Assembly (NCBI RefSeq): GCF_004010195.1
Contig: NC_057723.1
Span: 15,832,355-15,896,354 of the forward strand
Origin: Chiloscyllium plagiosum
Taxonomy: Eukaryota
DNA length: 64,000 bases
Reading direction: 5' to 3'
Shown here: piece by piece, positions 14,046 to 64,000 of the stretch
How the letters are laid out: each line of letters begins with the position of its first letter
How positions within the stretch are numbered: position 1 is the first letter of the stretch
Notes under the pieces: model-generated
What the model saw: the letters and a program-made list of their open reading frames with translations, nothing else
What the model was told of the DNA's origin: nothing
Database searches by the model: none
Translations under genes and position numbers: made by a program

Positions 14046-14291
14046 TTGATTAAATAATGCTATTATTTAAATGAAAGACTTACTCATTATTGTCTTCTGT
14101 CCTCTAGCTCTTTTCTCCCATTTGAGGGAAACATCTTTTCATCTCAAGTTCCTCAGGATCTTGTACAACCCTCATTCTTCTGAACTCCTATCAGTATAGG
14201 AGAAAGTGAGGTCTGCAGATGCTGGAGATCAAAGCTGAAAATGTGTTGCTGGAAAAGCGCAGCAGGTCAGGCAGCATCCAGGGAACAGGAG

Positions 14292-14327
14292 AATCGACGT
14301 TTCGGGCATAAGCCCTTCTTCAGGAAT
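14292..14327 (-). ncRNA. Minimal type I hammerhead ribozyme motif
   Basis: Reverse-complement copy of 14840-14875. Confidence 0.7.
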
Positions 14328-14589
14328 GAGGAAAGTTTGTCCAGCAGGCTAAGATAAAAGGTAGGGAGGAGGGACTTGGGGGAGGGGCGTCGGAAATGTG
14401 ATAGGTGGAAAGAGGTCAAGGTGAGGGTGATAGGTCAGACTGGGGTGGGGGCGGAGAGGTCGGGAAGAAGATTGCAGGTTAGGAAGGCGGTGCTGAATTC
14501 GATGGATTTGACTGAGACAAGGTGGGGGGAGGGGAAATGAGGAAACTGGTGAAACCCGAGTTCATCCCTTGTGGTTGGAGAGTTCCTAG

Positions 14590-14714
14590 NNNNNNNNNNN
14601 NNNNNNNNNNNNNNNNNNNNNNNNNNNNNNNNNNNNNNNNNNNNNNNNNNNNNNNNNNNNNNNNNNNNNNNNNNNNNNNNNNNNNNNNNNNNNNNNNNNN
14701 NNNNNNNNNNNNNN
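14590..14714. other. Assembly gap (N run)
   Basis: Run of Ns. Confidence 1.
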
Positions 14715-14839
14715 GCCCCCACCCCAGTCTGACCTATCACCCTCACCTTGACCTCTTTCCACCTATCACATTTCCGACGCCCCTCCCCCAAGTCCCTCCT
14801 CCCTACCTTTTATCTTAGCCTGCTGGACAAACTTTCCTC

Positions 14840-14875
14840 ATTCCTGAAGAAGGGCTTATGCCCGAAACGTCGATT
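14840..14875 (+). ncRNA. Minimal type I hammerhead ribozyme motif
   Basis: AUUC-CUGAAGA-A-GGGC-UUAU-GCCC-GAAAC-GUC-GAUU. Confidence 0.72.
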
Positions 14876-17874
14876 CTCCTGTTCCCTGGATGCTGCCTGA
14901 CCTGATGCGCTTTTCCAGCAACACATTTTCAGCTCCTATCAGTATAGGCCCAGTCTGTCCATTGTTTCTCATTAGAAAACCCTCTGGAATAGTAAAACAT
15001 CCCACTTTTATATTCTATAAATGACAACACTAACCTTCTTATTCATTTCCTGTACCTACATGCTAACCTCCAGTGATTTATATACTAGGACCCTAGCTTC
15101 CTCCATATCTCAAGTTCTGCAATTTCTCTCCATTTATATCATATGCTGCTTTTCTGCCACTTACACATTTACCCACATTACATTCCAACTGCTAATGTTT
15201 TTCCCTTTCACTTAATCTATCTATATCCCATTGCAGATTCCATATATCCTAAACTTTGTGTGACCAGCAAATTTAGCAGTCATACCTTTGATCCCATCCC
15301 CAAAATAATTGAGATAAATTGTGAAAAGTTGAGGCACCAGTACTGATCCATTTGGCATTCCATTCATTTTATCTTGCCAAACTGACAATGGCTTGTTTAT
15401 GCCTACTGTTCCTTGATAATCAGTTCTGAATCCAAGCTAACCCTCCACCACAAATTATTATTCTGTGAAGTGATTGTTGTTTAAGAGTTCATATTGGAGA
15501 CTGCACTAAGGTCCACCCAATCCGATGTCATACTGCATGGTTGGGAATAAGGCAGAACATTTTTAGATCCCATGGTTCGTTGACCATTTTTATTCATTTC
15601 GTGAGATGGTGGTATCACTGGCTATGCCCATTGTTCATTGCCTGAGAGCAGGCATTGGTGAACTGCCTTCTAGAACTGCCGCTGACATAGGTTTGTAGGG
15701 AACTCCTCAGTAGTGTTAGGGAGGATGTTACAGGATTTTGATCTGGTAACCACAAAAGGAGGCAAATGCAGTTCTAAGCTAGGATGGTGTGTAGCTTGAG
15801 GGGAGCTTGCAGGTACTGCATGCAGCTGCTGCCCTTGTCCTTCTAAGTGGTCAAGGCTTCCATCTTGGCCAGCTGACCCCAAACACTCAAGATACACTCA
15901 TAGGCAGTGAATACTCACACAACATGTCTGTGGAGGTTGGCATCAACATAGGCCATCCTCACCACATCATGGCACAGCTCTGACCCATATAAGATATAGT
16001 TAGCCACTTCAATACTGCTGTGACACCTAGCTGCTGCAAGGCTCCTTGGCGTGGAGGGATAGACACCCATCATGTGGATTGGAGCCACTCAGGGCTTTTT
16101 GCTTCTCTTTTTGAGGTTACTCATTTTGTGCCTACTAGGATGTTCATAGCAGCTCTGCCTTGCTTTGTATTTCTTTTCTAAGCTTTTGCATTGCCTGCTT
16201 TAGAATTTATAAACTCACAGTACTTCTGTTTTGACTTGTCTTTTAGCACAGACAGATAATCAGGCAACTAGTCATGCTAGTTAACAATAATCAATCAATG
16301 GGGTGGACATGTTGCTGCATGACATTGTGCTACATCAATGTCACATCGATGACAACTTTCACAGCAAACACCAGCATGTCTTTCAGCCAATAACACCCAT
16401 GAACTTCTATGAGGAAAGGTCCATGATCTGGTCAAGGGCGGGGGCTGCTGTCATCAGTCAGTGCAATGTCGGATCTATTTGGGGGTTGGACATGGTTATC
16501 TGACTGCTTAGGGGCAGTCAGGTGTTCAATATCATTACAGTGGAGAGTCAGCCACATTCATTCTTGCACATCCAGGGCAACAAATCTGAAGATTATCATT
16601 ATCAGCTGGAGAGAGGCACAAGCTCCACATTTCAATTAAAAATGAAAATGGCTACCATCACTCTCAGAATAGGTGGAATAAGTAGTGGTGTCTATTTGAT
16701 CATATGAGTTCTACATGAAAGTGATGTCAGGCCCTTCAAGGGGCAATTACATTAATCATACATTTACACAGTTCAAGTTAAAGATATCCATCTTCATAAA
16801 ATTCCACATAAAACATATGCACTGACCATTCTGAGTCACCTCAGTGAATCAGAAGTTACAACACATGACCTTTAAAAGTGTTACCTGTGGACCACAATTC
16901 ACAAAGGCAACCTGAAGTTTAATAGGCTGCACAAGGGCACAGAGCTCATTTGTTCTCACCTTGACCTATGTGCAGTGAAATGCAATGTTGTTTTTCTTAG
17001 GTGATGTAGGTAGTTGGAGTTCAGAGCATGGTTTTGGGAAATGAACCACATTTAAAACCTTCAAGATGGCTTGTGCTGTTGTGGAATATGGTCCATTTTG
17101 TCAGCTGTCCGTGTGGAATAATATCATGGCCCTCCTTGTTGGAATCATCAACATCCAGCTAAACCGTCATGTGAATGTTTGATGTGAATTCTGACTGCTC
17201 ACACTTACAAGAACCTGGTCTGTTTATGACCTTTCCCACACAGAAATATTGGCACTGTGGCCAAGGGTTCCAGCCACAGGGGCTGCAGTACAATAAAGGC
17301 ATAGGAAAATGGAAGAACAACAAATTTATTAGCATACCCTGGACTCAGCTTCCAAACAGCCTCTGCATGAAGTAGCAGCTCAATTTGATTTGAATTTTTT
17401 GGGGGGCACAGATTCCATGTCTTTCCCTCAGCATCTTTCTTCCTCACTAGAATATGTCTTTTCTGAGCGTTCAGAAATATTTCCTCATACCTTCCAATCA
17501 CAATGCTATCCTAGACTAAACTAAATGTCACGACATGTTGCATTAATAGAAGATAGTTGCATTGCAAAAACCCATCTCAGCGAAAAGGTTTGCAGGTGCT
17601 TTTCAACACTGAAATGGCAATTACATGGTTATATTCAATGGCCAAGGATGCACAACAGAGAAAATCTCGAATTACACAATGTACCATGAATATCAACAAT
17701 ACTCTTCCACTCAAGTGACCTGGTAGATGGCTCATAAAACTATGTAGAACAAGACATGAATATTGGCATAATAGCACAGGGGTTATTTACACAAGAAAGA
17801 AAGTTGTAATGGGAAATTTTAGGAAGAATATAAGAAGGATACAAATGGATTTGTGTGGGATGAAAGCAGGCAGT

Positions 17875-21016: not shown

Positions 21017-24000
21017 TAGATACACAGGATAGGCCATTGAGTCTGCTCCACTATTCAATATGATCATGGCTGATCCTGTAACTCAATGTCATATTTCTGC
21101 TTCCTTCCCTTAATTCGTGATGCCTTTGAAATCTAAAAGCTTACGTCTTTTGTGAATATATCCAGTGAGTTGGCCTCCAATAGCCTAATGTGGTAGACAA
21201 CTCCACAAGTTCGTGAACGTTTGAGTGAAAAAGGTTTTCCTTATCCCAGTCCTAAATGGCCTACCCCATACACTGAAATTGTGTTCCCTAGTTCCAGACT
21301 CCCCAACCAGGGATAACGTCCTCCCTGCATCTCATCTGTCCAACCCTTTTAAAATTTTATACATTGCAATCAGATCCCCTCTCATCCATTAAAACACTAG
21401 TAAATACAGGCTCAGTTGAACCAATCTCTCCTCATACGCCAGTCCTACCATCCCCAGTACAGCTGAGTGAACTTTTACTGCATTGCATCTCTGGGAAGTA
21501 TATCCTTTCTTCAGTAGGGACACTCTATACTCTAGGTGTTCTCACCAGGGCCCACTATAACTGTGTAAAACATCACTACTTCTCATGTCCAATCACCTGA
21601 CAATGAAGACCAATATACCACTTGCCTTCCTAATTACTTAGAACATCGAACAATACAGCTCCGAACAGACCATTCGGCTCTCGATGTTGAGCCGACCTGT
21701 GAACTAATCTAAGCCCATCCCCTTACACTATCCCATCATTATACATATGCTTATCCAAGGACTGTTTAAATGCCCCTAATGTGGCTGAATTAACTACATT
21801 GACAGACAGGGCATTCTGTGCCCTTACCACTCTCTGAGTAAAGAACCTGCCTCTGACATCTGTCTTAAATCTATTACTCCTCAATTTGTAGCTATGCCTC
21901 CTCGTACAAGCTGGTGTCATCATCCTAAGAAAAAGACTCAAACTGTCCATCCTATCTAATCCTCTGATCATCTTTTATGTCTCTATTAAATCCCCTCTTA
22001 ACCTTCTTCTTTCCAATGAGAACAGACCCAAGTTCCTCAGCTTTTCCTCATAAGACCTTCCGTCGAGACCGGGCAACAAGCTGATAAATCTCTACTGCAC
22101 CTCTTCCAATGCTTCCACATCTTTCCTGTGATGGGGTGGCCAGAACTATACACAATATTCCAAGTGAGGCCGCACTAGCATTTTGTACAGCTGCAACATG
22201 ACATCATGGCTCCAGAACTCAATCCCTCTGCCAATAAAACCTAACACACCATATACCTTCTTAACAGTACTATCAACCTGGGTAGAAACTTTCAGGGATC
22301 TACATACATGGACACCAAGATCCCTCTGCACATCTGCACTACCAAGAATCTTTCCATTGACCCAGTATTCTGCCTTTCTGTTATTCTTCCCAAAGTGAAT
22401 CACCTCACATTTATCTGCATTGAACTCCATTTGCACTTCTCAGCCCAATTCTGCAGTTTATCCAAGTTTCCCTGCAACCTGCAACATTTTTTCACATTGT
22501 CCACCACTCCACCGACTTCAGTGTCATCGAGAAACTTACTAACCCATCCACCTATGCTTGCATCCAAGTCATTTATAAAAATGACAAACAGCAGTGGTCC
22601 CAAAACAGATCCTTGTGACATTCCACTCGTAACCGGACTCCAGGCTGAATATTTTCCATCAACCACCACTCATTGCCTTCTTATAGAAAGCCAGTTTCTA
22701 ATCCAAACTGCTAAATCACCTTCAATCCCAGGCCTCCACATTTTCTCCAAAAGCCTACCATGTGGAACCTTATCAAAGGCTTTACTGAAGTCCATGTATA
22801 CCACATCAACTGCCCTACCCTCATCCACATGCTTGGTTACCTTCTCAAAAAACCCAATGAGGTTTGTGAGACAAAACCATGTTGACTATCTCCAATCAAA
22901 TTGTTGCTCAAATCCTATCTCTTATTCTCCTTTCCAAAATGTTTCCTACAATAGACTTAAGGCTCACTGGTCTACAATTACCTGGGTCATCTCTACAGCT
23001 CTTTTTGAACAAGGGCACAACATTTGCAATCCTCCAGTCCTCTGGTACTAAACCTGTCGACAATGTTGACTCAAATATCAAGGCCAAAGGCTCCGTCATC
23101 TCCTCCCTAGCTTCCCAGAGAATCCTCGGATAAATCCCATTCGGCCCAGGGGACTTATCTACTTTCACACCTTCTAGAATTGCTAACGCCTCCTCCTTAC
23201 TAACCTCATTCCTTTCTAATCTAATAACCCATATCCCAGTCTTCTTCTCTACAATATTCTCTTTTTCTTGGGTGATAACAGATGAGACATATTCGTTAAA
23301 CACCTCTCCAATCTCCACAGGGTCCACACACAACTTCCCACTTCTGTGTTTGACTTGCCCTATTTGTACCCTAGTCATCCTTTTATTCCTCACATACCTA
23401 TAGAAAGCTTCAGAGTTCTCTTTTAATCTACCTGCTAAAAACTGCTCATGTCCCATCCTTGCTCTCCTTAACTCTCTGTTTAAATCCTTCTTAGCTAATC
23501 TGAACCATCTCGTCTCAATGTCACATAAGCCTCCCTCTTCCGCTTAATAAGAGAGACAATTTCTTTAGTAAACCACAGTTCCCTTACCTTATCACTTCTT
23601 CCCTGCCTGATAGGGACATACCTATCAAGGACACGCAATATCTGTTCCTTAAATCAGCTCCACATTTATATTGTCTCCATCCCCTGCATTTTGCTACCCC
23701 ATTCTATGCCTCCTAGGTCTTGCCTAATCACATTATAATTGCCCTTCCTCCATCTTTAACTCTTGCCCTATCCCGTTCCATCGCTAAACTAAATGTAACC
23801 AAATTATGGTCACTCTCTCCAAAATGCTCACCCATGACTAAATCAAACACCTGGTGTGGTTGATTACCAATTACCAGATCCAGTGTGGCCTCCCCTCTTG
23901 TCGGCCCTTCGAGATATTATGTCAGGAAACCCTCCTGTACACATTGGACAAAAACTGATCCATCTGATGTGCTAGAGTTATAGCATTTCCAGTCAATGTT

Positions 24001-28938: not shown

Positions 28939-30212
28939 TGATCTTAAATTTGGCTGTTGAGAGCAAACCGTAAGATTCTATGTATAGATTGTGAAACCTT
29001 GAGTAAATTTTGATTATGAAATTCTCACAAAGAATTGTTCATTTCTTTTTTTTAAAATTCATATTTATTAGAATGGAACATAACAAGAAAACAGGACACC
29101 CATGCCAAATTGAAGATAAAGTATAGCCAGCAATTAATGATTTGTACTTGGGTGTAGCTATACATGTATAATGCATGGTCAGTTACATTCCTGATCTAGG
29201 ACATCCAACTGTAAATGACATATCATGTCCTATTAAACAAAAATGGCTTGCATCAAAATAATTAGCCATCATGGTAGTGACCTCTTGTAATGTGGGAAAG
29301 GCTAAGGCAAGAAGCTTAGTAGTATAAATACCTTTGTATTTGTATAATCAGCATAGTTACTGTCAATCAACTTGAACTATGGTAAAAATTAACCATTCTA
29401 AATGTGGAGATGTATTGAATCAAGTTCTGGATTTTTAAGGGGACATTTTAAAAATGCCAGATTTAAAAAATAATCTTTTTCTAATCATTTATTTTTCATT
29501 TTCTATCTTAATCAAATATTGCTTCCCCTTCCTTTATTCTGTTTCAGAGTTAGATTTGCTTAATTCACCCATCATCTCGTTCATTTGTGTGTTTATTCAT
29601 CAGTCTTTAATGCTGCTTGGATAAGAAGTGTGCTCTTTCTTGCCCTGTTATCTCCAGATCTCAAATATCCTGACTTTGTCACTGCAATACTGTAGGCTCA
29701 CAGCTCGGCAATTTTGTAGGCTGCAGAGCAAGAGCAGATACTCTTAGATGTCCTACCACAGAAATATTTCATATAGTGTTCCTTTGTTTCTCTTGGCTAA
29801 GTGTACTAATCCTGCACATACAGCATGTAGCCTTGCTTGAAGGGATGCGGATAAGAGATAAGTCTAAAACAAGTAGTGGTGTGTCTCTGAACCACTCCTC
29901 TTGTGTCTGCATCAGTGAATTTATTCATTTATCCAATTGTCTCTCTCATCAATGCACTTTTCCTGCTGATCTTAAATTTGGCTGTCAAGAGCAAACCGTA
30001 AGATCCTATGTATAGATTGTGAAACCTTGAGTAAATTTTGATTATGAAATTCTCACAAAGGATTGTTAATTTCTTTTTTTTAAAATTAATATCTATTAGA
30101 ATGGAACATAACAAGAAAACAGGACACCGTGCCAAATTGAAGATAAAGTATAGCCAGCAATTAATGATTTGTACTTGGGTGTAGCTATACATGTGTAATG
30201 CATGTACAGTTA
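28939..30212 (+). repeat. Direct duplication of ~246 bp (28939-29185 and 29967-30212)
   Basis: Both copies start tgatcttaaatttggctgt and end ...atgcatg..cagtta, with scattered substitutions. Confidence 0.92.
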
Positions 30213-33149: not shown

Positions 33150-34900
33150 CATGTCTGGGGTACTAGTTGCGGTTCAAAGTTGATTTTAACAACCTGCTCA
33201 ATGTCTTCAGCTGAGCTGGTGTGAATGGTTGTCACAGGGAAAGGCTCTCTCAGTGTTGAAACTCTATGCATGTGCAATGGTCTGAACAGAATGGCCACAG
33301 TCACAACTCAAACATTTCCTCATGTTCCAATTGTGGAACAAATAGCCACAGCTTCACCCATCGGTCTTCATATGCTGTTCAGATTATCAATAGAAGGTTT
33401 AAACTTTTATCATTCATGTCAGTTATTAGGTCAACCAGGAGGTGCGCCATCAAGAGGGCTGACTGTCAGCTGTTTGTTAGGTATGATGTGTGTTCCAGTA
33501 ATGTCAATGAAATTTCGGTTAATGACATGTAATTATTTGACATCATTGTTAGTCTTTTATTGGCTGTCAGCTGGTGATGTTCTTTTGAGAAGGAAGTTAT
33601 CCCTGTAGACATTAGAAGGTTCAACATGTGTGAGCACAGGAAGTCATTTGAGTTGTTTTGCTCTGAACATCATAGAAATAATTTGTATGATTTCCAAGTT
33701 GGCATCTACCACATTTGTGTGGTGATCCATGTGCAATTTATCTCTTGCTAGATAGAACAGGGTGACCAAAGCAGTGTGTAATGTGTTGGCTCTGTTCTCC
33801 CTAATGATAACAATCAGTTTCTGTCTGAGATTTTTTTCTTGACCTTGGTTGTGATATTCTGAGGTTTTAACACTTGATCAATGTGCACTCAAGACTGATG
33901 CCAAAGTATTTTGTCACTGGTTGCGGGTGAATGGTCTGCCACAGAATTGGACATAAGATAACAGTATTGAAAGTGTTGATGTTTAGGCTGCATTAAACTC
34001 CATCCAATCTGGTATCTCTCAGTCTTTATGTAGAGAAGAAACAGGAGAAAGTGAGGACTGCAGATACTGGAGATCAGAGCTGAAAATGTGTTGCTGGAAA
34101 AGCGCAGCAGGTCAGGTAGCATCCAAGGAGCAGGAGAATCGACTTTTCAGGCATGGGCCCTTCTTCAGGAAGCCCTTCTTTCCTGAAGAAGGGCTCATGC
34201 CCGAAACGTCGATTCTCTTGCTCCTTGGATGCTGCCTGACCTGTTATGCTTTTCCAGCAACATATTTTCAGTAGAGAAGAAACAGTCTCATACAAGGTCC
34301 TAGTAGAGACAGATATGTCACTTCTGGCTCTTGATATTCTTTATAATTATGCCTAGTCAGTAAAACCTGTGTCTATTGCTATCATGCAATAAACTACATC
34401 TTGAGTAAGTCAAGTGTCTATTCACAATAGTGACTCATCCTCTGCCTCACTAATTATTCGGGCAACCTCACTAATGCCTGGAGCATGTAAATCCTTAAAG
34501 GTGAGTTCTGTTAGAAGTATGGTACACATAACACACTCCAGGCCAATGACAAGTTAGCAGTGTTTACTATGCCAACATTTGATAGATATTAAGTTCTTCT
34601 CTGGCCTTCAAGTTGTTCAACTGGCTGATCAAATTTTCCATTTTCTGAAGTAGGCCTCTAGAGAACCTAAATCTGCAGTGAGTATTCTGTCAGTGTCCAG
34701 AAACTCTTTAGCCTGGAACGCAATGGTCAAATCATCAACATGTGCAATGAGTTGTGACTTTGTGGAAGGGAGGTCACTAGTTCATATGGTGAAGAGAACT
34801 AGTGTGGAGATTGATCCCTTTTGGCTTTCTAAGATGTACATGGGACTGTCAGTTGCTGATCACAGTGCCAATTATTTATAGGGTTTTCACACGATATTTG
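33150..34900 (-). mobile_element. Highly decayed Vingi/ingi-like non-LTR retrotransposon
   Basis: Collinear minus-strand motifs: GSxxxxVLFTI..SDLP...AHVDDLTI...LTADLGSLEAYFRKWK (~34820-34635), LNNLKAREELNI, LTFKD, GWS..SVADHSP, LPVLTHVEP, CDCGHSVQTIAH (~33305-33270). Confidence 0.65.
34045..34270. mobile_element. Fold-back PLE mini-element with perfect 15-bp TSD
   Basis: TSD gtagagaagaaacag (34030-34044 / 34271-34285); arms meet at two opposed hammerhead motifs, the + strand copy at 34180-34214 being intact. Confidence 0.92.
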
Positions 34901-36512
34901 GTTTTAGAGAGTATCAGCATTGAGGGCGAGAAAGACTTTAGAAAAGTATCCTCAAATAGAGCATTGATGGCACATAGAGTGCTTTGCAACAGGGAACAGT
35001 TGATACAGAGATGATTGCATCTTTTACATGAAAAGGAGAGTAGATGTTTGAAGTGAATATAGTTATATGACTATCAGGAGACAGCGGGGCAGTATAATCA
35101 GTTTTGAATTGCTCTTGAAGTGCAAAGATCGGCACAGACACAATAACCTGAATGGCATCCTACCCTGCTGTATAAGTTGGTGGTTTTCTGGTGATTCCTT
35201 CGGATGTTGTAGCTAATTCAGTCTCCACAAACCTAACTGTATGGATGAATAATAAAACCATTTCCACCACATCTGTTTCCTGTACCTGACAGAAGCAAAA
35301 GGATAAGAAATCAATGTATTAAAATAATATTTTTGAATTGTGATGTGGGATTTCTTTTTATGTTAAAGTTATTGCGAAATAATTGCTAAGAATAATACAG
35401 CTAACTTTGTTTCTTCAAGAGGCATATATCATCACATTGCTGAATGTGATATTTGTATAGATTTGACCCCTACATCATGTTACAGTGACCTGATGCTTGT
35501 CACTATGCCGTACTCCTACCAGCTGTTGGCTGGTAGTATATGTCGCAATGGGAAAACATCATATTACAAACATACGAACATGATCAAAAATGGTACATGG
35601 AAAGAGGCAGGAAACTGAATTTGAAATAGAATATAAGCCTGTTGTTGCTTGTGAACCGTGATCAGTGACCCTATCAATTTTACATTATGAATGATGGCTA
35701 GAAGATCATGATCAGACACTTACCATCCACCTTCTGCTTCATTTCCTCTCCATTGCCCTTCTGCAGTCATGTGATCTTCAGGGAAAACAAAAATAAATAG
35801 ACAGGGGCAGTTCAGGAGAATACATATTTGGAAAAGTTCTCTACCACCCTCTCAGGCATTTAGAATCAGCACAGCAGCTCACCTGGCCTGAGTGTCTATT
35901 ATCTGTAAACCTCTTTTCTTTTGTAGGATGTAATCTCTGCTCCTGTCAAGACTAGCTCAAACTCAAAAGAAAGCCATGCTGAGAATCTGCATTTCCTGCT
36001 TTCGCCATCAGCACATTCCAATGGTTCACTATACTCTCTTTTAGGGTGGGGTAATGGGGATGAGGGGGGGAGACTAATAACACCTGAAAAAAATTGCTCT
36101 TCCTCAGTCTTGCATTGTTTCGATATGTATCTCTTGATTGCCTCCAACTTGTCAAACTGCAATGATCCTGATTTTAACTTTGTGCCAGTGAGTGAGATGA
36201 GTAAAAAATCTCAGCCAGTCAACAAATTGGCTATGATGTAGCCTTTGTCATTTTTGTTTTGTGTGGCAGGTTATTTATGCTAGACCACTGTTGATGTAAG
36301 TGGTCAGTTGCAGACTCAGTATCAGAGTGGCAGTTGTGAGCATCAAGGCAAACATGTTGGCTTGGCACATGCTAAAAATAAACTTGCCCATTATTAGGTC
36401 TGTGCAGTCCTTAACTGACTGCAAGTTCTTGCATTTCGTCCATATATCATTGAGCAATTATTCCCTCTGTAAAACATGCCTTCTGATGATTTAGTAAATG
36501 ATGAAGAGATAA

Positions 36513-41025: not shown

Positions 41026-44000
41026 CAAAATGACAGTAGGACAAGAGTCAACTCAATCTTGTGAATCAGGTTTCCAGTAATGTCATAAAAAATCTATCTG
41101 GTGAATTAAGGTGTTGTGACACACTGTATCAACGTTCTGACAGCCCATATAATATTGCTCTGTGATGAGATAATCATATTATTGCATACTGTGGTTTGAC
41201 AGTGTAGATATTATCTACTTAATGATACACTGTTAAAATTGAACACATTACTTATGCATCAGTAGCTGCTATAGCTAAGCTTTTCTGTTGCAAATTGTTT
41301 AGTTAAAGCAGGACACTTGTCCCTTATTGTTGGTGGAATGTGTCAATTCCTACTGGCTTCTCCATGACAGCTCTATTCATGCACAATCTTTTGACATTCT
41401 CCCTCTGGCATTTTCTCAGCAACTGCCAAATGTGACTGAAATCCTGCAGCTATGGGCTTAGCCAAGCTGTGCTGCTCCAAATGAAGACAAATCCCTGTTA
41501 TGTGGAAATTAATAATTTGGTACAAGGCGTACTGCTACAGTTTAATTTTAGCTTAGTATAATTTGCTGTAAGTATTCATTGTCATTCTCAAATGGCAAGG
41601 ACCGTGATGAGTGCTTGTAAGTGCTGATTAAAAAAGGAAGTTGAGAGATCAGGACAGTTTAAAGATAATGGGGAAGCAAGGTTACAAAGATTGCATTGAT
41701 TGCTCAGGGACAGGAAGCACCCTGGGATGGTACCAATGCAACCTACATGGGATCCTTCAAGTACATTAATGACAAATACAAAATAGACCGTGCAGGTAGT
41801 GACTTGAGGTTCTGCCTTTCCAAGGATTAAAGATACATCGCTGTGACAATATTAAAACTGAAACTATGCAAGCTAATTACTTGCCGATGATATCATTACA
41901 CAGAATGATAAAGAGAAGAAATATGGTATAGATATTTGAACTGAGGGGCACTTAAAGAAAGGCAGAGAAGAAGGAAGACGTGCCAACGGTCCCACGAAGG
42001 TGAAGGTAACAACAAATGAATGACAAGCAAAGTAGGATAGCTCACTTAGCTGCCCTGACTATTTTCTGAAACAAACAATTAGTTCCAAATACTTTATTAA
42101 AATAAACTACGAAAACCATAATAACATGAAAACTAGAACCGGTCATTAAGGGATCTGAGAAAATTAGATTATTATAAGTGGCAGAAAAGTTGGAGATAAT
42201 TTAACTTTTGAATTAGAAGTTAACTGGAAGATATTTATATTTGCAAACCAGGTCTTTGGGTGAGGAAGCTAAAATTGTTGACCCAGGACATTTTTAATCT
42301 CAGAAAACAGAAGTTGTTGTTGAAACTCAGCAGGTCTGGTAGTATCTACAGAGTGACCCTGTTTCAAATCTGCAGCATCCACAGCTGTTTGTTTGTACCT
42401 GTATTTCTTTTAAAATTGACTTTCAAGACAAATAAGGATGCAAGCGTAACTCTACCTGAAGGTATTTGACAAAAGTTCTTTACAACATTTTGACAAGCAA
42501 GTAGCCCATTACTTAAAGGGTTCAACTCACCATTGGCCAGCAAATCTTGTACATCGACAATAGAAAGAACCAAAAGAGCTTAATAAATTATCACACAACA
42601 GACTGCATTTGTTTAATTTTAGCTGAATATAGTTTACTGTAATTACCTACGACCATTCTCAAATGGCAAGTGCAATGGTGAGTGTTTCGCTTTGGAAACG
42701 GTCTATACTGGAGCTAAGAGATGGAAAACTGTTAAACAAGCCATCGAAGTAATGGGGTATTTACATAAACCTGCAATATTTGACAGGGCTTTGATTTAAT
42801 GACTCATGTAAAAGATGACAGCCGCAGCTCAATATTGCACTGATGTGTCAGTCTCTGTGGCAGGCTCTGCCTAGCAAGTTGATGGTTTGTTCCATGGTGG
42901 TCAGCTTTCTGTTAAGCATCACCTGGCGTGACTCAGCAGTCCCACTCTGGCATGGCAGTCTTTGTTGCATCTGCTGCAGAGGAAGATATTGGACTGGGAA
43001 GGTGTAGGATTCTCTGGTAATACCAGCATCAAACAGTGACCTGTTTGACCCCAATTCAGCTCTTAAAAGACTCTGGATTTGCCTGTTATCACTGACTGAA
43101 CCCATTCTGTTGTACTGTGGTGTGTCAGCACCTGAATAGTCAGGGGCTTCCCGACTTGAGTTAGGCAGTGGCTCACGTGATCCCTCCTACTATCACAGAC
43201 AGCCCATAGCATCTGTTCTATGCGACTTTCAACTTGAGTTTAACACTCGAGACTGCAGTCCCCTGTGTTATATTAATGCTCTCCGGGGGAAAAACCTGGA
43301 AAAAGTGTATGGAGATTCATGACTACCAAAAAAGTCAGGGACCCCCTCTGAACCTCTAAGTTGAATTTGGAGGAAGCAAGCCATTGTGTTTGGTGCAGGT
43401 TAGTTGCAGATGTTCCTGGAAAAATTACCTCATTAGCCATCCACTTGACTTTGCACTCCAGTCCTGTTTCTTTGTCAGCATTTATTTCTTTAGCCTTCAC
43501 CTCTCCTGAAGTATTCACAAGCCAGGAGAGTTATTTGATCATAGCTGGGATTTGGATACATGAACAACAGCAGGCTGCTCAATGTATGCCTGAAGGTCAA
43601 ACCACTTCCAAGTTCGTGTTAAACTTTGGCCTGAGACTGTGAGGAACTCAGGCGTGTCATCATAAGGAAATATGACTGAGACATGTTGATGGAAAGTTTA
43701 TGTACTGACAGCGAGAGACATACACATTAGGCACTTTACTTCACATTTCTATGAAGCAGTGGTGTCATCTGAAAATGAGAAACAAACCAATATTCAAAAG
43801 CAGAAAGCAGTCTTTGTCTCTTCACTCATACATAAGACAAGGCGTTAGCCTGTTGGATGCATTATTTCAACTGACACTATAGCATCTTTAATCAAGTATT
43901 CCAGGTAAGAAAGAAGGATCTGTTTTTAAAAAAAATCTTTATTTTTGTTGGGAGAATTTTCATCAAATTCATTTTCAATAAACGATTTCATAGATCTTAA

Positions 44001-44420
44001 TAGTTACAGAAGGAAGCCTTTCAGCTCATCATAAATTTGCCAATCAAACACTAACCCAGCTGACCTACTCTCTTGTAATCATTCTCTGTTTCAAATGATT
44101 ATCTAATTTTTCATCAGGGATTTTAGTCTCAACCTCCCCTATACAGTCCAGGAGCCTGCTGCTTAAGTAAGTTTTTCCCCAGTATCATCATCAGTGATAA
44201 CTTTAAATTGATGGCCCATGCCAGTTGTGATCAAACAGAGAAATGTATCTTTTCCAATTGATTACCAAAGCTTATTAAATCGCTTGTCTTTTCTCCAACA
44301 ATAAAAATAGTCTCAGTGTTTTCAATCTTCTGTCCTTAATTATAATTCTTAATCCTAGATGTCATCCTAATGAATCTAAGCTGTGCTCAGCCCAAGAATT
44401 CATTCTTCCTTCTACAAACA

Positions 44421-44595
44421 CTCCTCCCTACCTTTTATCTTCTCCTGCTGAACACTCTCTGCTCATTCCTGAAGAAGGGCCTGTGCCCGAAACGTCGAAT
44501 CTCCTGTTCCCTGGATGCTGCCTGACCTGCTGTGCTGTTCCAGCAATAAAGTTTCAACTTTGATCTCCAGCATCTGCAGACCTCACTTTCTCCTC
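44421..44595 (+). mobile_element. PLE 3' terminal fragment (family A)
   Basis: ctcctccctaccttttatc...ctgcagacctcactttctcc, the same 3' terminus as the 14201 element. Confidence 0.9.
44465..44500 (+). ncRNA. Minimal type I hammerhead ribozyme motif, best formed in the window
   Basis: Stem I AUUC/GAAU, core CUGAAGA, stem II GGGC-CUGU-GCCC, GAAAC-GUC. Confidence 0.75.
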
Positions 44596-46047
44596 TTTGG
44601 ATACATGAACAACAGCAGGCTGCTCACTGTATGCCTGAAGGTCAAACCACTTCCAAGTTCGTGTCAAACTTTGGCCTGAGACTGTGAGGAACTCAGGCGT
44701 GTCATCATAAGGAAACATGACTGAGACATGTTGATGGAAAGTTTATGTACTGGCAGCGAGAGACATACACGTTAGGCACTTTATTTCACATTTCTATGAA
44801 GCAGTGGTGTCATCTGAAAATGAGAAACAAACCAATATTCAAAAGCAGAAAGCATGCTTTGTCTCTTCACTCACACATAAGACAAGGCGTTAGCCTGTTG
44901 GATGCATTATTTCAACCGACACTATAGCATCTTTAATCAAGTATTCCAGGTAAGAAAGAAGGATCTTTTTTAAAAAAAAAATCATTACTTTTGTTGGGAG
45001 AATTTTCATCAAATTCATTTTCAATAAATGGTTTCATAGATCTTAATAGTAACAGAAGGAAGCCTTTCAGCTCATCATAACTTTGCCAATCAAACACTAA
45101 TCCAGCTGACCTACTCTCTTGTAATAATTCTCTGTTTCAAATGATTATCTAATTTTTCATCAGGGATTTTAGTCTCAACCTCCCCTTTACAGTCCAGGAG
45201 CCTGCTGCTTAAGTAAGTTTTTCCACAGTATCATCATCAGTGATAACTTTAAATTGATGGCCCATGCCAGTTGTGACCAAACAGAGAAATGTATCTTTTC
45301 CAATTGATTACCAAAGCTTATTAAATCGCTTGTCTTTTCTCCGACAATAAAAATAGTCTCAGTGTTTTCAATCTTCTGTCCTTAATTATAGTTCTTAATC
45401 CTAGATGTCATCCTAATGAATCTAAGCTGTGCTCAGCCCAAGAATTCATTCTTCCTTCTACAAACAGGAAATCATAACAAAGTTCTGTAACCACAGTCAA
45501 GTCCAGCTTTTTTAGAAATGCAATGGTATGTCTTCATTTTTATACCCTTATTCATTAGAGTTATTAATATTGCTGTCTTTACATATGACTTAATTCACCC
45601 CTGGTTTCTCTTCCATGGAAGTATGCATTCAAACTCTTGGATTTCTCTGTACATACTCAACAGTTGTGACAGCATCTTTAAGAACAAGAAGCAAAATTAA
45701 TGCTTCTAGTCCTTGACCTTTTCTTCAAACTGTTCTAATGATTCTGACACACTGAGTGGAATTTCCTAAGAGTCTGTGGTGAGATTTGTGGTAGAATCAG
45801 ATGAGATGACCAGCGAGACCTAACTTGACATTGGGAGCATCTCACTCCTTCTTTTATGCTTTAGGCAAGAAGCACAGCAAGGGACATATTGCCTGTTGAA
45901 TGCCTTGTTTACTCGGCCCATTAATATTGAGCTTCCTCCTGAACAATTACACCAACAAATCGATATGTTGAGACAACTCAACATAAGAAGCTGAGTGGGT
46001 GCCTGGTGATTTCAACTTGTTGCTTGCTGTAAAGGACTCTTTGTTGT

Positions 46048-53820: not shown

Positions 53821-54618
53821 ATATTGAATGGTGGAGCAGGCTGAAAGGGCCAGATGGCCTTATTCTGCTCCTTACATCAATGTTTCTATGAGCAATCTGA
53901 ACAAGATGAATGTGATGATAGTGGCCTCACTCCACCTGGTCAATCTCGATTAAATCTGTAACCCAGCCTTGAATGTACACAGTTGTCTGATTCCACTGCT
54001 CTGAGGGCTGAGGAGTTCCAGAGGTTTATAACTTCCTATGAAATCCCTTTTCATCTTATCTGAAATCGTACAGCTCCTTTTTTTCCCAGTCCTGATCTCA
54101 GTACCCAGTGAACTGAAAGCCACTTCTTCCACAACCAACTTTGAACCACATATTGAATTCCCTTGCCTTCTCTGCCCGATATCAGCTTACCTGTGGCTCA
54201 GATAGTAATCCAGCGATCACTGTTTTTGTGATTCTGCTTTTTGTCTCATGGGTTCACTATACCTGGACAGAATCTTTAATGAAGGCATCTAACATTGAAC
54301 CCACTACCCACTTTCCTTCTCAAAGCTCTGTAACTCCATTTGTTTCAAATATTTACCCACATTTCCAGTGAAGTGGCAAATTATTTAACCATGGTCACTT
54401 TTTCGCAAGCAAAGAAATAATTTCTCTGTTTTCACATTATTAATTTGCTACATCATTTCAAAAACATGCTATTACATTTACATATCTCTGCTTCAGTAAG
54501 GAATATCTCAACCTCTCCTGGAACAATAGCAACTCAGCATTGTTTCGCCTTGCAGAGTTAGCATGGTACTCTGTCCATTACTTTCATTCCCTTCCCCAAA
54601 ATTTATTCCTGATGAATG

Positions 54619-56875
54619 GATCAGTCCTGGAGCAGTGCGTGTGGAGTCAGTCCCGGAGCAGTGCGTGGGGAGTCAGTCCCGGAGCAGTGCGTGGGGAGTC
54701 AGTCCAAGAGCAGTGCGTGCGGATCAGTCCTGGAGCAGTGCGTGCAGATCAGTCCTGGAGCAGTGGGTGGGGAGTCAGTCCCGGAGCAGCAGGGGGAGTC
54801 AGTCCAGGAGCAGTGGGCGGGGAGTCAGTCCCAGACCAGTGTGTGGGGCGTCAATCCCAGAGCAGTGCGTGAGGTGTCAATCCCTGGGCAGTGCGTGGGG
54901 TGTCAGTCCTGGAGCATTGCATGGGGAGTCTGTCCCAGAGCAGTGCGTGTGGAGTCAGTCCCGGAGCAGTGCATGGGGAGTCAGTCCCGGAGCAGTGCGT
55001 GGGGAGTCCGTCCCGGAGCATTGCATGGGGAGTCAGTCCCGGAGCAGTGCGTGGGGAGTCAGTCCTGGAGCAGTGCATGGGGAGTCAGTCCCGGAGCAGT
55101 GCGTGGGGAGTCCGTCCAGGAGCAGTGCCTGGGTGTCAGTCCCGGAGCATTGCGTGGGGAGTCTATCCCAGAGCAGTGCGTATGGAATCAGCCCCGGGGC
55201 AGTGCGTTGGGAGTCAGTCCCAGAGCAATGCGTGGGGAGTCAGTCCTGGAGCAGTGCTTGGGGAGTTAGCCCCGGAGCGTCATGGGGAGTCTGTCCCGGA
55301 GCAGTGCGCGGGGAGTCAGTCCCAGAGCAGTGCGTGGGGCGTCAGTCCAGGAGCAGTGGGCGGGGAGTCAGTCCCGGACCTGTGTGTGGGGCGTCAATCC
55401 CAGAGCAATGCGTGGGGAGTCAGTCCAGGAGCAGTGCGTGGGGCGTCTGTCCCGGAGCAATGCGTGTGGAGTCAGTCCCGGAGCAACGTGGGGAGTCAGT
55501 CCCGGAGCAGTACGTGAGGTGTCAACCCTGGAGCAGTGCGTGGGGAGTCAGTCCCAGAGCAGCAGGGGGAGTCAGTCCCGGAGCAGTGTGTGGGGAGTCA
55601 ATCCCGGACCAGTGCGTGAGGAGTCTGTCCCGGTTCAACAGGGGGTGTCAGTCCCGGAGAAGAGCGTGGGTAGTCAGTCCCGGAGCAGCAGGGCGGACTT
55701 CGTCCAAGGGCAGTGCATGGGGATTCTGTCCTGGAACAGTGCATGAGGAGTCAGTCCCAGAGCACCAGAGAGAGTCAGTCCCAGAGCAGTACAGGGAGTC
55801 AGTCCCGGAGCAGTGCGTGGGGAGTCAGTCCCGGAGCTGTGCGTGGAGAGTTAGTCGTGGAGCAGTGCGTGGAGAGTCAGTCCCAGAGCAGTGCGTGGGG
55901 AGTCAATCCCAGAGCAGTGCGTGGGGAGTCAGTCCCAGGGCAGTGCGTGGGGAGTCAGTCCAGGAGCAGTGCGTGGGGTGTCAGTCCCAGAGCAGTGCGT
56001 GGGGAGTCAATCCCAGAGCAGTGCGTGGGGTGTCAGTCCCGGAGCATTGCATGGGGAGTCTGTCCCAGAGCAGTGCGTGTGGAGTCAGTCCCGGAGCAGT
56101 GCATGGGGAGTCAGTCCCGGAGCAGTGCGTGGGGAGACCGTCCCGGAGCATTGCATGGGGAGTCAGTCTCGGAGCAGTGCGTGGGGAGTCAGTCCCAGAG
56201 CAGTGCGTGGGGAGTCAGTCCCGGAGCAGTGCGTGGGGAGTCAGTCCCAGAGCAGTGCGTGGGGTGGCAATCCCAGAGCAATGTGTGGGGAGTCAGTCCC
56301 GGACCAGTGCGTGGGGAGTCCGTCCAGGAGCAGTGCCTGGGCGTCAGTCCCGGAGCATTGCGTGGGGAGTCTATCCCAGAGCAGTGCGTATGGAATCAGC
56401 CCCGGGGCAGTGCGTTGGGAGTCAGTCCCAGAGCAGTGCGTGGGGTGTCAATCCCAGAGCAATGTGTGGGGAGTCAGTCCTGGAGGAGTGCGTGGGGAGT
56501 TAGCCCCGGAGCGTCATGGGGAGTCAGTCCCGGAGCAGTGCGTGGGGCGTCAGTCCCAGAGCAGTGCGCGGGGAGTCAGTCCCAGAGCAGTGCATGGGGT
56601 ATCAGTCCCAGAGCAGTGCGTGGGGCGTCAGTCCCGGAGCAGTGCGCGGGGAGTCAGTCCCAGAGCAGTGCATGGGGCGTCAGTCCCAGAGCAGTGCGTG
56701 GGGAGTCAGTCCCAGGGCAGTGCGTGGGGAGTCAGTCCCAGGGCAGTGCATGGGGAGTCAGTCCCGGAGCAGTGCGTGGGGATTCAGTCCCGGAGCAGTG
56801 CGTGTGGAGTCAGTCCCGGAGCAACGTGTGGAGTCAGTCCCGGAGCAGTCTGTGGGGTGTTATTCCCGGAGCAGC
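54619..56875. repeat. G-rich 26-bp minisatellite, about 85 units
   Basis: Consensus GGAGCAGTGCGTGGGGAGTCAGTCCC, with variant and shortened units. Confidence 0.97.
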
Positions 56876-57229
56876 AAGGTTAGCGAGTCTTGGTGTCTGG
56901 TGCAGAAGCCCTCCGCTGATCTGCTGCAGTGTAATATTTATTTGAAGTTTTTACCTGCTTCTAATGTCAATCCTTTAATGAGGTCTTATTTCTAACTCAT
57001 TTTTCAAACACCGTAAAGTAATGCCGCTACTTTTTATTCCTCTTTCTTAACCATGATTTGTACCTGAGATGGTGCCATAAGAGGCGGATTTGTAAAAGCT
57101 TTACTCTGTATCCCTGTATGTCTATAATGGAATACACCTGACAATAAAGAATATTATTTTTTATTCTATTAGAAAATTCCAATGTACAAAGGAACCTGCC
57201 TGACTTCATCAATAAGTCACAGAAGTCTA

Positions 57230-58042: not shown

Positions 58043-58701
58043 AAGAGAAAGTAAGGACTGCAGATGCTGGAGATCAGAGCTGAAAAATGTGTTGCTCGAA
58101 AAGTGCAGCAGGTCAGGCAGCATCAAAGGAGAAGGAGAATCGATGTTTCGGGCATAAGCCCTTCTTCAGGAATGAGGAGGGTGTGCCAAGCAGGCTAAGA
58201 TAAAAGGTAGGGAGGAGGGACTTGGGGGAGGGGCGTTGGCAATGCGATAGGTGGAAGGAGGTCAAGGTGAGGGTCATAGGCCGGAGAGGGGATGGGGGCA
58301 TAGAGGTCGGGAAGAAGATTGCAGGTCAAGAAGGCGGTGCTGAGTCCGAGGGTTGGGACTGAGATAAGTGTCCCAGAGGTGTTCTCTGAAATGTTCCGCA
58401 AGTAGGCGGCCTGTCTCCCCAATGTATAGGAGGCCACATTGGGTGCAGCGGATGCAGTAAATGTGTGTGCAGGTGCAGGTGAATTTGTGACGGATATGGA
58501 AGGATCCCTTAGAAGGAGGGAAGTGAGGGGGGAGGTGTGGGCGCACGTTTTGCATTTCTTGCGGTTGCAGGGGAAGGTGCCGAGAGTGGAGGTTGGGTTG
58601 GTGGAGGGTGTGGACCTGACGAGTGAGTCGCGGAGGGAGTGGTCTTTCTGGAACACTGATAGGGGAGGAGAGGGAAATATATCCTTGGTGGTGGGGTCTG
58701 T
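58043..58701 (-). mobile_element. PLE fragment with Cys-rich linker and GIY-YIG endonuclease relic (Neptune-like), 12-bp TSD
   Basis: TSD ttgccagtgaca (58031-58042 / 58702-58713); GTFPCNRKKCKTC and FTC...IYCIRCTQCGLLYIGETGRLLAEHFREH; hammerhead motif 58138-58173 (minus). Confidence 0.92.
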
Positions 58702-62548: not shown

Positions 62549-63134
62549 AATCCTACAATGGAGTCTATTAAGTCTCTTCCTCTCAAAGCTCATCTCCAGT
62601 GCAACATGAATCGCATAGACCTGGCATCCAGATCAAATTGCAAATTAACTATCCCTTGAACTCCCAACTTCATTTTATCATGAATCTAAATGTGCAGTTT
62701 ACATTATAACTGTTTACAAAATCTGACATTCTGAACACTTTTCTGAAACTGTGGATGATAACAGTCCATATGCTATCAGCACAGATGCTTTGGTTGTTTT
62801 TTCTTACAGGTGTGAACATATTTCACCTTCTTCCCAAGAAAACAACTGAATCTTTAACACCCAAGCCACGCAGCCTTGCTTTCAGCCAAATTCAGAATAG
62901 ACACAGGTCCCTGCATTCCTCCATTTTTACCTGAAGGATGCCAGGCCTAAACAGAACAGACTGTAAAACCACCATTTGTTGCCTAATATTATGCTCAATA
63001 GCTTGCGCGCATTTAACATTTCTTGTTAATTTTTTATTGGTGTTTCTATCTCATAAAATCAAGAATTTAAAATTGTATTTTAAGAGATTTATTCATGCAC
63101 AATTTATAAAGTTTTGTAAATCTAAACAGTAAAC

Positions 63135-64000
63135 ATCTTTACCAGATAGACTGCACCCCAGAGGTCTAAGGGAGATAGCTGAAGAGATAGTGAAGGCATT
63201 ATTGGTAATTTTTCAGGAATCGCTAGAGCCAGGGAGAGTCCCAGAGGACTGGAAAATTGCTCATGTAACATTTCTGTTTAAAAAGGGAGTAAGGCAGAAG
63301 AAGAAAAATTACAGACCAATTAGCCTAACCTCAGTTGTGGGTAAGATTGTGGGAACCATTGTGAAGGATGAGATTTCTGAATACTTGGAAATACATGGTA
63401 AAATAGAGCAAGGTCAGCATTGTTTCATCAAGGGTAGGTCATGCCTGACTAATCTTCTAGAATTCTTTGAGGAAGTAATGAGCAGATTAAACCAAGGAGA
63501 AGCAATGGATGCTATCTACCTGGATTTCAAGAAGGCCTTTGACAAGGTGCCGCACATGAGGTTACTGAGAAGGATAAGGATCCATGGTGTCAGAGGCAAA
63601 ATGCTAGCATGGATGGAAGCTTGACTGTTTAGCAGAAAGTGGAGAGTGGAGATAGAAGGGTCCTTCTCAGGATGGTAGCCAGTGACAAGTGGTGGCTCAG
63701 TGTTGGGACCACAATTTTTCCCTTTATACATGAACAATCTAGATGAAGGAACTGAGGAATTTCTGGCTAAGATTGCATTTGATACAAAGATAGGTAGAGG
63801 GACAGGTAGCATTGAGGAGGCCGGAAGGCTGCAGAAGGATTTGGACAGGTTATGAGAGTGGGCAAAGAAGTGGCAGCTGGAGTACAATGTGGGGAAGTGT
63901 AAGGTCATGCACCTTGGTGGGAAGAATAGAGGCAAGGGCTATTTTTTAAGTGGGGAGAAAATTCAGAAGTCTGAAGTGCAAAGAGACTTGGAAGGTCTAG
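63135..64000 (+). mobile_element. CR1 RT pseudogene fragment, running off the window
   Basis: VPEDWKIAHVTFLFKKG...NYRPISLTSVVGK...GRSCLTNLLEFFEEV...IYLDFKKAFDKVPH; in-frame stops downstream. Confidence 0.95.

What the first reader, a model, noticed from the sequence alone, without database searches (positions are those of the whole stretch)
43551..45466. PLE fragment sits exactly at the junction of an ~870-bp direct duplication
Seen: copy 1 (43551-44420), a 175-bp PLE 3' end with an intact hammerhead (44421-44595), then copy 2 (44596-45466), with no other spacer. About 3% divergence by eye argues against a simple assembly artefact. Other PLEs here have TSDs under 20 bp. Inference: either widely staggered nicks gave a giant TSD, or the PLE carried or repaired flanking DNA. 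The duplicated unit includes a strong splice donor CAG|GTAAGA (~43903 and ~44949), so this could be PLE-mediated exon duplication.
Basis: partly seen in the sequence, partly recalled or inferred. Interest (0 to 1): 0.7.

Follow-up and report, generated by a model that had tools for sequence, protein, structure and literature searches.

The report
Penelope fragment bridging 870-bp duplication
A short piece of a Penelope-type jumping gene sits exactly between two near-identical 870-base copies of shark DNA that relatives carry once and without the insert, most likely because the insertion itself duplicated its landing site, although a join of two different chromosome copies is not excluded and the proposed exon duplication is unlikely.

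Summary
The geometry is as described: 43551-44420 and 44596-45466 are 97.0% identical and enclose only a 175-bp Penelope-like (PLE) 3' end with a minimal hammerhead. Four other copies of the family in the window have 12-16-bp target duplications. Public contigs of three organisms (3 of 3 laid) hold the unit once, without the PLE, so duplication and insert arose together or were joined together. No run carrying the duplicated form was found. The nearest single-copy allele matches copy 2, not copy 1, at all 9 diagnostic sites listed and probably most of the other 14. A simple giant target duplication does not predict that. It needs later loss by recombination between the long repeats, or the copies are two haplotypes joined through PLE sequence, in vivo or in assembly. 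Best reading (0.5): a PLE-primed giant target-site duplication, as known for L1 and Dualen LINEs; I found no PLE case in my paper searches. Exon duplication is unlikely: a relative deletes the acceptor and copy 1 has a stop. The scan noted PLE end-pieces in this genome before, but not this junction type.

The parts
43551..44420 (+). Copy 1 of the duplicated unit (870 bp, 36% GC, unique in the window). Carries a letter not seen in organisms A or B at 9 listed sites (8 of them also not in C).
44421..44595 (+). 5'-truncated 3' end of a Penelope-like element, 175 bp, no inverted 5' arm, no short TSD; ends at the family's usual terminus (loose ends of other genomic copies peak at 44593-44594)
   Evidence: (table 7)
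44465..44500 (+). Minimal hammerhead motif: helix I 44465-44468/44497-44500, CUGANGA 44469-44475, one extra base, helix II 44477-44480/44485-44488, GAAA 44489-44492, palindromic helix III remnant, predicted cleavage after 44496. Activity untested.
   Evidence: sequence; definition from PMC4209133 passages
44596..45466 (+). Copy 2 of the duplicated unit (871 bp); same letter as the single-copy alleles of relatives at the 9 listed diagnostic sites
44420..44421 (+). 5' junction (unit end to truncated PLE): blunt, no microhomology with either the target's continuation or the family's upstream sequence; relatives' contigs leave the stretch exactly here
   Evidence: (table 8)
44595..44596 (+). 3' junction (PLE terminus to unit start): no shared letters with the sequence before copy 1; inferred priming site
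43837..43909 (+). Candidate 68-nt exon and donor-like site in copy 1 (counterpart 44882-44954 in copy 2); judged not a conserved coding exon
   Evidence: (tables 4, 5)

Best explanation
A Penelope-like element likely began reverse transcription at a nick at the unit's first base (43551), and after 175 nt its cDNA was likely joined to a DNA end 870 bp downstream instead of the usual 12-16 bp, which would leave the 870 bp on both sides of the insert as one giant target-site duplication. Shown: the geometry, the usual PLE 3' terminus at the start of copy 2, the lack of a short TSD or inverted arm, and single-copy PLE-free sites in three relatives. Inferred: priming by the element, a distal second end (an unrelated nick, a replication-fork end or a sister chromatid, as proposed for L1), and an age after the split from organism B. 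To fit the organism-A allele, which resembles copy 2, that lineage would have lost the insert again by recombination between the two long repeats with the crossover near the start of the unit; this last step is inferred and is the weakest.
For: Exact unit-PLE-unit geometry with no spacer. The PLE's 3' junction lies at the family terminus, where loose ends of other copies peak (44593-44594 in all four runs), so it looks made by the element; the 5' end is an arbitrary truncation. 4 of 4 other copies examined have 12-16-bp TSDs, this one has none except the 870-bp unit. In X1, X9 and X19 one contig crosses the unit start without an insert, stops fitting at 44420 and runs on for 600, 609 and 53 letters that are not the PLE; none of the 13 listed joints links 44595 to 43551. 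The run-on lengths of X1 and X9 would end 17-26 bases into the repeat that starts at 46049, as their left ends do at the SINE ending at 41030, so the run-on is probably the right flank (letters not displayed). Copy-copy divergence (2.6%) is below copy 1 vs B (4.4% over 548 bp) and vs C (5.5%), so a duplication after those splits fits. Differences include decay at 3 of 8 CpGs of copy 2 (P=0.008 against the mean rate), the mark of long residence, not of sequencing noise. Pieces at least 99% like this PLE copy are 15% of those laid in A, 2.5% in B, 4.2% in C: a subfamily that grew in the A lineage. Nearest N gap is 11 kb away. Precedent: L1 TSDs up to 6.8 kb and the prediction that they are erased by recombination (PMC5223499), Dualen median 900 bp (PMC9977147), a purified PLE protein cuts and extends both strands (PMC11167929).
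Against: No run with the duplicated allele was found: best share of words 0.75, 0 of 3 laid DNA runs show either junction. X1 carries the copy-2 letter at 9 of 9 listed diagnostic sites, and a rough likelihood on its counts by kind of change peaks when all 14 unlisted sites also equal copy 2 (relative 1.0 at 14, 0.08 at 10, 0.002 at 2-3); the word share fits the same (0.72-0.78 simulated vs 0.60-0.70). A never-duplicated allele should be equally far from both copies. The rescue by loss through recombination needs an early crossover, 5-16% likely given loss, and copy 2 shows fewer private changes than the left flank (5 substitutions and 1 indel in 1.1 kb) would predict. Neither junction has microhomology, whereas 3 of 4 other copies share 1-3 letters with their target at the 3' end. 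A CCT lies 13 bases before the unit end, where an ordinary insertion would have primed (weak; about 1 in 15 by my rough estimate).
Confidence: 0.5

Rival explanations
1. The two copies are two diverged haplotypes, each with its own PLE insertion 870 bp apart in the same orientation (one after the unit, one before it), joined through PLE sequence either by the short-read assembly or by a real unequal crossover. The long repeats are then pseudo-TSDs.
For: Explains directly why the organism-A allele groups with copy 2 and lies 23 or more changes from copy 1. Both junctions would be real and the assembly is short-read with N gaps. A CCT priming-like motif sits 13 bases before the unit end. The last 35 bp of the PLE are shared by many subfamilies (loose ends before 44561), enough for an assembly join. 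A pseudo-TSD model by recombination between two insertions is discussed for HERV-K (PMC5488345).
Against: Needs two independent same-strand insertions within 1 kb, one of them absent from X1, and a haplotype 2.6% diverged, while the left flank differs from X1 at only 6 listed substitutions and 1 indel in 1.1 kb (at most 3 more if copy 2 equals X1). The PLE differs from the window's common subfamily along its whole length, with no visible switch point.
Confidence: 0.3
2. A break-repair or fork-restart tandem duplication made by the host, with PLE cDNA captured as a patch at the break and no role for the PLE endonuclease.
For: Blunt junctions without the 1-3-letter overlap seen in 3 of 4 other copies, and no inverted 5' arm, which 3 of 4 others have. 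1-10-kb L1-bridged tandem duplications are ascribed to break-induced replication (bioRxiv 10.1101/2024.12.14.628481). A second local duplication without any recognised element lies at 28939-30212.
Against: The insert ends at the element's normal terminus and on the side expected for target priming. PLE priming without homology is reported in vitro (PMC11167929), so blunt joins are not abnormal. It has the same trouble with the organism-A allele as the best explanation.
Confidence: 0.12
3. Copy 1 was newly synthesised during the insertion by an error-prone polymerase, so nearly all differences fell on it at once while copy 2 is the old DNA.
For: All 9 listed diagnostic sites have the relatives' letter in copy 2; strand-displacement synthesis primed by the cDNA would make exactly copy 1 anew (inference).
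Against: The listing is biased to sites where X9 differs from copy 1, so it cannot show copy-2-private changes. The spectrum is that of slow neutral change (14 transitions, 9 transversions, CpG decay, both strands). X9 has only one unlisted C>A, so at one or both of 44080 and 44179 B keeps the copy-1 letter. A 2% error rate exceeds what reverse transcriptases make (recalled).
Confidence: 0.04
4. PLE-mediated exon duplication or transduction: the unit holds a working exon ending at the CAG|GTAAG donor and the element copied it.
For: A good donor in both copies and a pyrimidine-rich AG 68 nt upstream; one frame is open for 23 codons in copy 2.
Against: Organism B replaces 43833-43872 by two letters, removing that acceptor and 36 of the 68 nt; C has deletions of 4, 6 and 1 nt further upstream. 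Copy 1 has a stop in the open frame; the other frames close after 4 and 18 codons; 68 is not a multiple of 3. The donor pattern occurs 21 times in the window, 10 on plus and 11 on minus. No host-gene domain in 255 frames scanned. Raw RNA reads of X21 give zero depth in 27 of 27 non-PLE bins, but only 2% of a single-cell polyA run was read (weak). Transduction needs a donor PLE before the unit, absent in 3 of 3 relatives.
Confidence: 0.04

Closest known systems
Large target-site duplications of L1 (Servant et al., PMC5223499; passages and Discussion read) and L1-bridged tandem duplications (PMC7058536 passage; bioRxiv 10.1101/2024.12.14.628481 passages)
   Same: A short 5'-truncated retroelement at the junction of a kb-scale direct duplication, 3' end at the start of the downstream copy; distal second nick, sister chromatid or break-induced replication proposed; loss by recombination between the long TSDs predicted.
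   Different: Those are de novo events in cultured or tumour cells with an APE-type endonuclease and poly(A) priming; this is a GIY-YIG PLE in a germline assembly, old enough for 2.6% divergence, and not confirmed by reads.
Dualen-4b_cRei LINE duplications in Chlamydomonas (PMC9977147, passages read); R9 126-bp TSD as cited there
   Same: Same size class (median 900 bp) and same flanking arrangement.
   Different: In Dualen more than half of insertions have them and two endonucleases are invoked; here 1 of 5 examined copies, the other four with 12-16 bp.
Ordinary insertions of endonuclease-positive PLEs: 5'-truncated, tail, optional inverted arm, short TSD (PMC3846280 and PMC8557442 passages; PMC11167929 parts 1-2 of 4)
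   Same: Hammerhead-bearing 3' end with tail, 5' truncation; a longer family copy encodes a GIY-YIG-like motif.
   Different: TSDs reported in PMC3846280 are 8-10 bp; this copy has an 870-bp flanking repeat and no inverted arm.
HERV-K(HML-2) loci with 111-450-bp TSDs and the pseudo-TSD model (PMC5488345, abstract and passages read)
   Same: The same ambiguity: true long TSD, repeats made by recombination between two insertions, or an empty allele regenerated by recombination between the long repeats.
   Different: Retroviral integrase chemistry; empty and filled alleles there were confirmed by PCR.

Membership tests
Endonuclease-positive Penelope-like element (fragment) | Minimal hammerhead in the terminal repeat (CUGANGA, one base before G10.1, G10.1-C11.1 pair, GAAA, palindromic helix III remnant) | tested here: met
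   44465-44500; criteria from PMC4209133 passages. Whole-fragment folding is no more stable than shuffles (z 0.42); Rfam gave no match at gathering score.
Endonuclease-positive Penelope-like element (fragment) | GIY-YIG endonuclease upstream of the terminal repeat | tested here: inconclusive
   Absent from the 175-bp copy. The longer family copy at 58045-58700 reads YCIRC..CGLLYIGETG, Pfam GIY-YIG E=0.013, below cut-off; its homologue P0004 passes the cut-off (E=7.6e-5).
Endonuclease-positive Penelope-like element (fragment) | Telomerase-like reverse transcriptase ORF | not tested
   No full-length copy in the window and no genome held.
Endonuclease-positive Penelope-like element (fragment) | 5' truncation, 30-40-bp tail, optional inverted arm, high copy number | tested here: met
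   Tail present here and lacking on the inverted arms at 14796-14934 and 34177-34270; tens of thousands of contigs per run lie on the fragment.
Giant target-site duplication of a target-primed retroelement | Element abuts both repeats, its 3' terminus at the start of the downstream copy, no additional short TSD | tested here: met
Giant target-site duplication of a target-primed retroelement | Pre-insertion site holds the unit once and no element | tested here: met
   3 of 3 laid DNA runs (X1, X9, X19); the letters beyond 44420 were not displayed, right flank inferred from length.
Giant target-site duplication of a target-primed retroelement | Both copies descend from one molecule, so they are each other's closest relatives | tested here: inconclusive
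   Leans against: X1 groups with copy 2 (9 of 9 listed sites; 14 of 23 not listed, inferred from counts). Compatible only with later recombination.
Giant target-site duplication of a target-primed retroelement | Both junctions on one DNA molecule in the source individual | not testable with these tools
   No run with the duplicated allele among the 3 laid; source reads not identified.
Duplicated coding exon | Acceptor, donor and frame kept in relatives and in the copies | tested here: not met
   Acceptor deleted in organism B; stop in copy 1.
Duplicated coding exon | Spliced reads at the donor | tested here: inconclusive
   No reads over the unit in 2% of one single-cell polyA run.

The most novel reading that the evidence does not exclude
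Shark Penelope-like elements sometimes complete insertion at a DNA end hundreds of bases from their nick and so make kilobase tandem duplications in the germ line, and these are later erased by recombination between the long repeats, restoring a site that looks never used. This locus would be a natural case of both steps: the window keeps the duplication and organism A carries a reverted allele built mostly from copy 2. With PLE ends this abundant, it would be a standing source of small duplications and of false 'empty sites' in shark phylogenomics.
Probability: 0.25. Interest if true: 0.6.

Novelty: new variant of a known kind. Interest (0 to 1): 0.36.

Why it matters
How PLEs make and resolve the second DNA end is unsettled; one in vitro system exists (PMC11167929). 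A kilobase target duplication would show that the second end can be far from the element's nick, as for L1 and Dualen, and would make PLEs a source of local duplications in genomes with very many copies. If the organism-A allele is a revertant, it is a natural example of the erasure predicted in PMC5223499 and a warning for presence/absence markers. If the join is an assembly product, it defines an artefact class that mimics giant TSDs. One locus, no gene affected, no read confirmation: moderate interest.

Tried and rejected
Whole-genome scan for further PLE ends flanked by long repeats: no genome held. Rfam: 0 matches in the window. Host gene: 255 stop-free frames (251 of 60 aa or more outside the 54.4-57 kb satellite, plus 4 shorter ones in the unit) gave only 3 RVT_1 hits and one sub-threshold V1R hit; small exons would be missed. 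RNA: no RNA holder listed, which is no evidence either way. Insertion of a PLE by chance at the junction of an older tandem duplication: rejected, it would add a 12-16-bp TSD that is absent, and 0 of 3 relatives have the duplication alone. A one-insertion haplotype artefact (bubble branch starting 31 bases before the first difference): considered and rejected, since a word length near 32 cannot keep 870 bp phased across gaps of up to 71 identical bases, and a gap filler would have continued into the short TSD (reasoning, not a test). 3' transduction: no source PLE before the unit in relatives. A count argument (32 differences in X1 vs 52 expected, P=0.002) weakens to P=0.12 if the flank is allowed to evolve more slowly, so I do not rest on it. 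Paper searches for a PLE with a long TSD (also 13) listed none; the library lacks most subscription papers and I read no supplements, so absence from print is not shown. Earlier scan notes: no finding held all words in two searches, none near this place, none by sequence.
Full report
OBSERVATION. The window holds two direct copies of an 870-bp unit, 43551-44420 and 44596-45466, 97.0% identical over 871 columns, with 23 substitutions and 3 gap columns at one T/A run. The unit matches nothing else in the window. The 175 bp between them are wholly a repeat end, 90.8% identical to the copy at 14198-14371. The window has two N gaps, the nearer 11 kb away, so the assembly is gap-containing and probably short-read (inference). 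No whole genome is held.

THE INSERT. It carries a minimal hammerhead at 44465-44500 with the traits listed for PLE ribozymes in PMC4209133 (passages read): one base between A9 and G10.1, a G-C closing pair, a palindromic helix III remnant. The core pattern occurs 7 times in the window and never in 100 shuffles. Folding recovers helix II but the fragment is no more stable than shuffles (z 0.42), Rfam has no match, and such motifs are reported inactive as monomers, so 'intact' means sequence only. A longer family copy (58045-58700) encodes a GIY-YIG-like motif (Pfam E=0.013); its best protein hit is labelled Chiloscyllium punctatum, 86% identical, which places the DNA among bamboo-shark-like genomes. 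Four other copies with resolvable ends (14.2, 34.0, 49.9, 58.0 kb) have TSDs of 16, 15, 15 and 12 bp; three have an inverted 5' arm and share 1-3 letters with the target at the 3' end. Older subfamilies in the window were not examined for TSDs. The junction copy has no short TSD, no inverted arm and no microhomology at either end. Its 3' end lies where other genomic copies end: loose ends peak at 44593-44594 in all four runs.

RELATIVES. The run search listed 24 runs, 20 holding part of 41030-46040; best share 0.75 (organism A), about 0.30 (B), 0.18 (C). In each of the 3 DNA runs one contig crosses the unit start without an insert, stops fitting at 44420 and continues for 600 (X1), 609 (X9) and 53 (X19) letters that are not the PLE. 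None of the 13 listed joints returns from the PLE end to 43551. The continuing letters were crowded out of the tables, but 600-609 letters would end 17-26 bases inside the repeat beginning at 46049, just as the left ends stop inside the SINE at 41030, so they are probably the right flank. Contigs drop rare variants, so this shows the single-copy allele is present, and an unbroken contig suggests but does not prove the duplicated allele is absent. The site is thus single and PLE-free in 3 of 3 relatives; the duplication alone was not seen. None of the runs confirms the duplicated form.

THE UNEXPECTED RESULT. The difference table shows 40 of 155 rows, all at places where X9 differs from the window. 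At 9 of the 23 sites that tell the copies apart, X1 and X9 carry the copy-2 letter, and X19 does at 8 (the ninth lies in a deletion). The other 14 are not listed. X1's contig has 32 other letters and 3 gap letters; 15 are listed. Its counts by kind of change are consumed exactly if X1 equals copy 2 at all 14 (C>A 2, T>A 2, T>G 1 left over). A rough likelihood, which borrows the RNA run's list for differences inside the PLE and ignores how the T/A run is aligned, gives 1.0 for 14 sites, 0.27 for 12, 0.08 for 10 and 0.002 for 2-3. Simulated word shares give 0.72-0.78 if X1 equals copy 2 and 0.60-0.70 if it matches at none of the 14; observed 0.75. So X1 probably groups with copy 2 and lies 23 or more changes from copy 1. 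A never-duplicated allele should be equally far from both. This is inference from counts, not a read alignment.

MECHANISM. Best reading (0.5): the element primed at the unit's first base and its short cDNA was joined to an end 870 bp downstream, giving a giant TSD. Polarity, terminus, missing short TSD and empty relatives fit. L1 does this in repair-deficient cells, with TSDs up to 6.8 kb, and that paper's Discussion proposes a distal unrelated nick and predicts loss by recombination between the long TSDs (PMC5223499). Tumour cases invoke a sister chromatid or break-induced replication (PMC7058536; bioRxiv 2024.12.14.628481). Dualen LINEs make median 900-bp TSDs (PMC9977147). A purified PLE protein cuts and extends both strands and primes without homology (PMC11167929). 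Copy-copy divergence (2.6%) is less than copy 1 to B (4.4% over 548 bp) or C (5.5%), CpG decay points to long residence (3 of 8 CpGs, P=0.008), and near-identical PLE pieces are enriched in A (15% vs 2.5% and 4.2%). To fit X1, organism A's allele must be a secondary loss with an early crossover, 5-16% likely given loss. Main rival (0.3): two diverged haplotypes, each with its own PLE 870 bp apart, joined in assembly or by unequal crossover; it explains X1 at once but needs two insertions and a deep haplotype next to a flank that differs little. Both paths are discussed for HERV-K long TSDs (PMC5488345). Host break repair with a PLE patch (0.12) cannot be told from the best reading at one locus. 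My weights rest on rough priors and could move by a factor of several.

EXON CLAIM. The donor is present, but the pattern occurs 21 times in the window, 10 plus and 11 minus (10.7 expected from shuffles; several lie in repeats). The best acceptor gives 68 nt; one frame is open in copy 2 for 23 codons, which is the only point in favour, and has a stop in copy 1. Organism B has lost 43833-43872, acceptor included, and C has deletions of 4, 6 and 1 nt in the unit. No host domain was found in 255 frames. RNA run X21 gave no reads on 27 of 27 non-PLE bins, from 2% of a single-cell polyA run, which is weak. A non-coding exon is not excluded.

NOVELTY. Retroelement-bridged kilobase duplications are known. 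Six searches of the held library listed no PLE case; PLE TSDs in the passages read are 8-10 bp (PMC3846280; PMC8557442). Subscription papers and supplements were not seen and may hold one. Papers seen as abstract or listing only: PMC2671141 (abstract), PMC8455134 and PMC6155905 (listing); PMC5402677 (two passages: precise loss by short TSDs is very rare). Earlier scan notes describe PLE end-pieces and local captures in this genome but not this junction type. Verdict: a real-looking, exact PLE-bridged duplication, a new variant of a known kind, unconfirmed by reads, without a credible exon. Interest 0.36.

Noticed in passing
window 28939-29185 and 29967-30212: A second direct duplication, 247 bp at 95% identity, around a 781-bp spacer that matches nothing else in the window; no PLE seen. 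Resembles a repair-mediated local duplication (PMC2671141 abstract) or another long TSD.
   Followed up: partly
window 14185-14948: PLE insertion with 220-bp inverted arms at 99.5% around a 125-N gap and a 16-bp TSD; one arm lacks the tail.
   Followed up: partly
window 58045-58700 (minus): 656-bp 5'-truncated PLE copy with a 12-bp TSD, no inverted arm, and a GIY-YIG-like reading split over two frames.
   Followed up: partly
window 42965-43415: All listed window-private differences of the left flank (5 substitutions, one 2-bp deletion) fall in the 590 bp next to copy 1; none is listed in 42450-42964. Unexplained; could mark the extent of a diverged haplotype block.
   Followed up: partly
window 54595-57000: 26-bp GC-rich minisatellite of about 2.4 kb with long open frames.
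   Followed up: no
window 22403-22885 (minus) and 63133-63621 (plus): Reverse-transcriptase fragments (Pfam RVT_1) of decayed retroelements.
   Followed up: no
window 36300-36491 (plus): Sub-threshold Pfam V1R hit (E 6.7e-4, 34 residues); probably chance.
   Followed up: no
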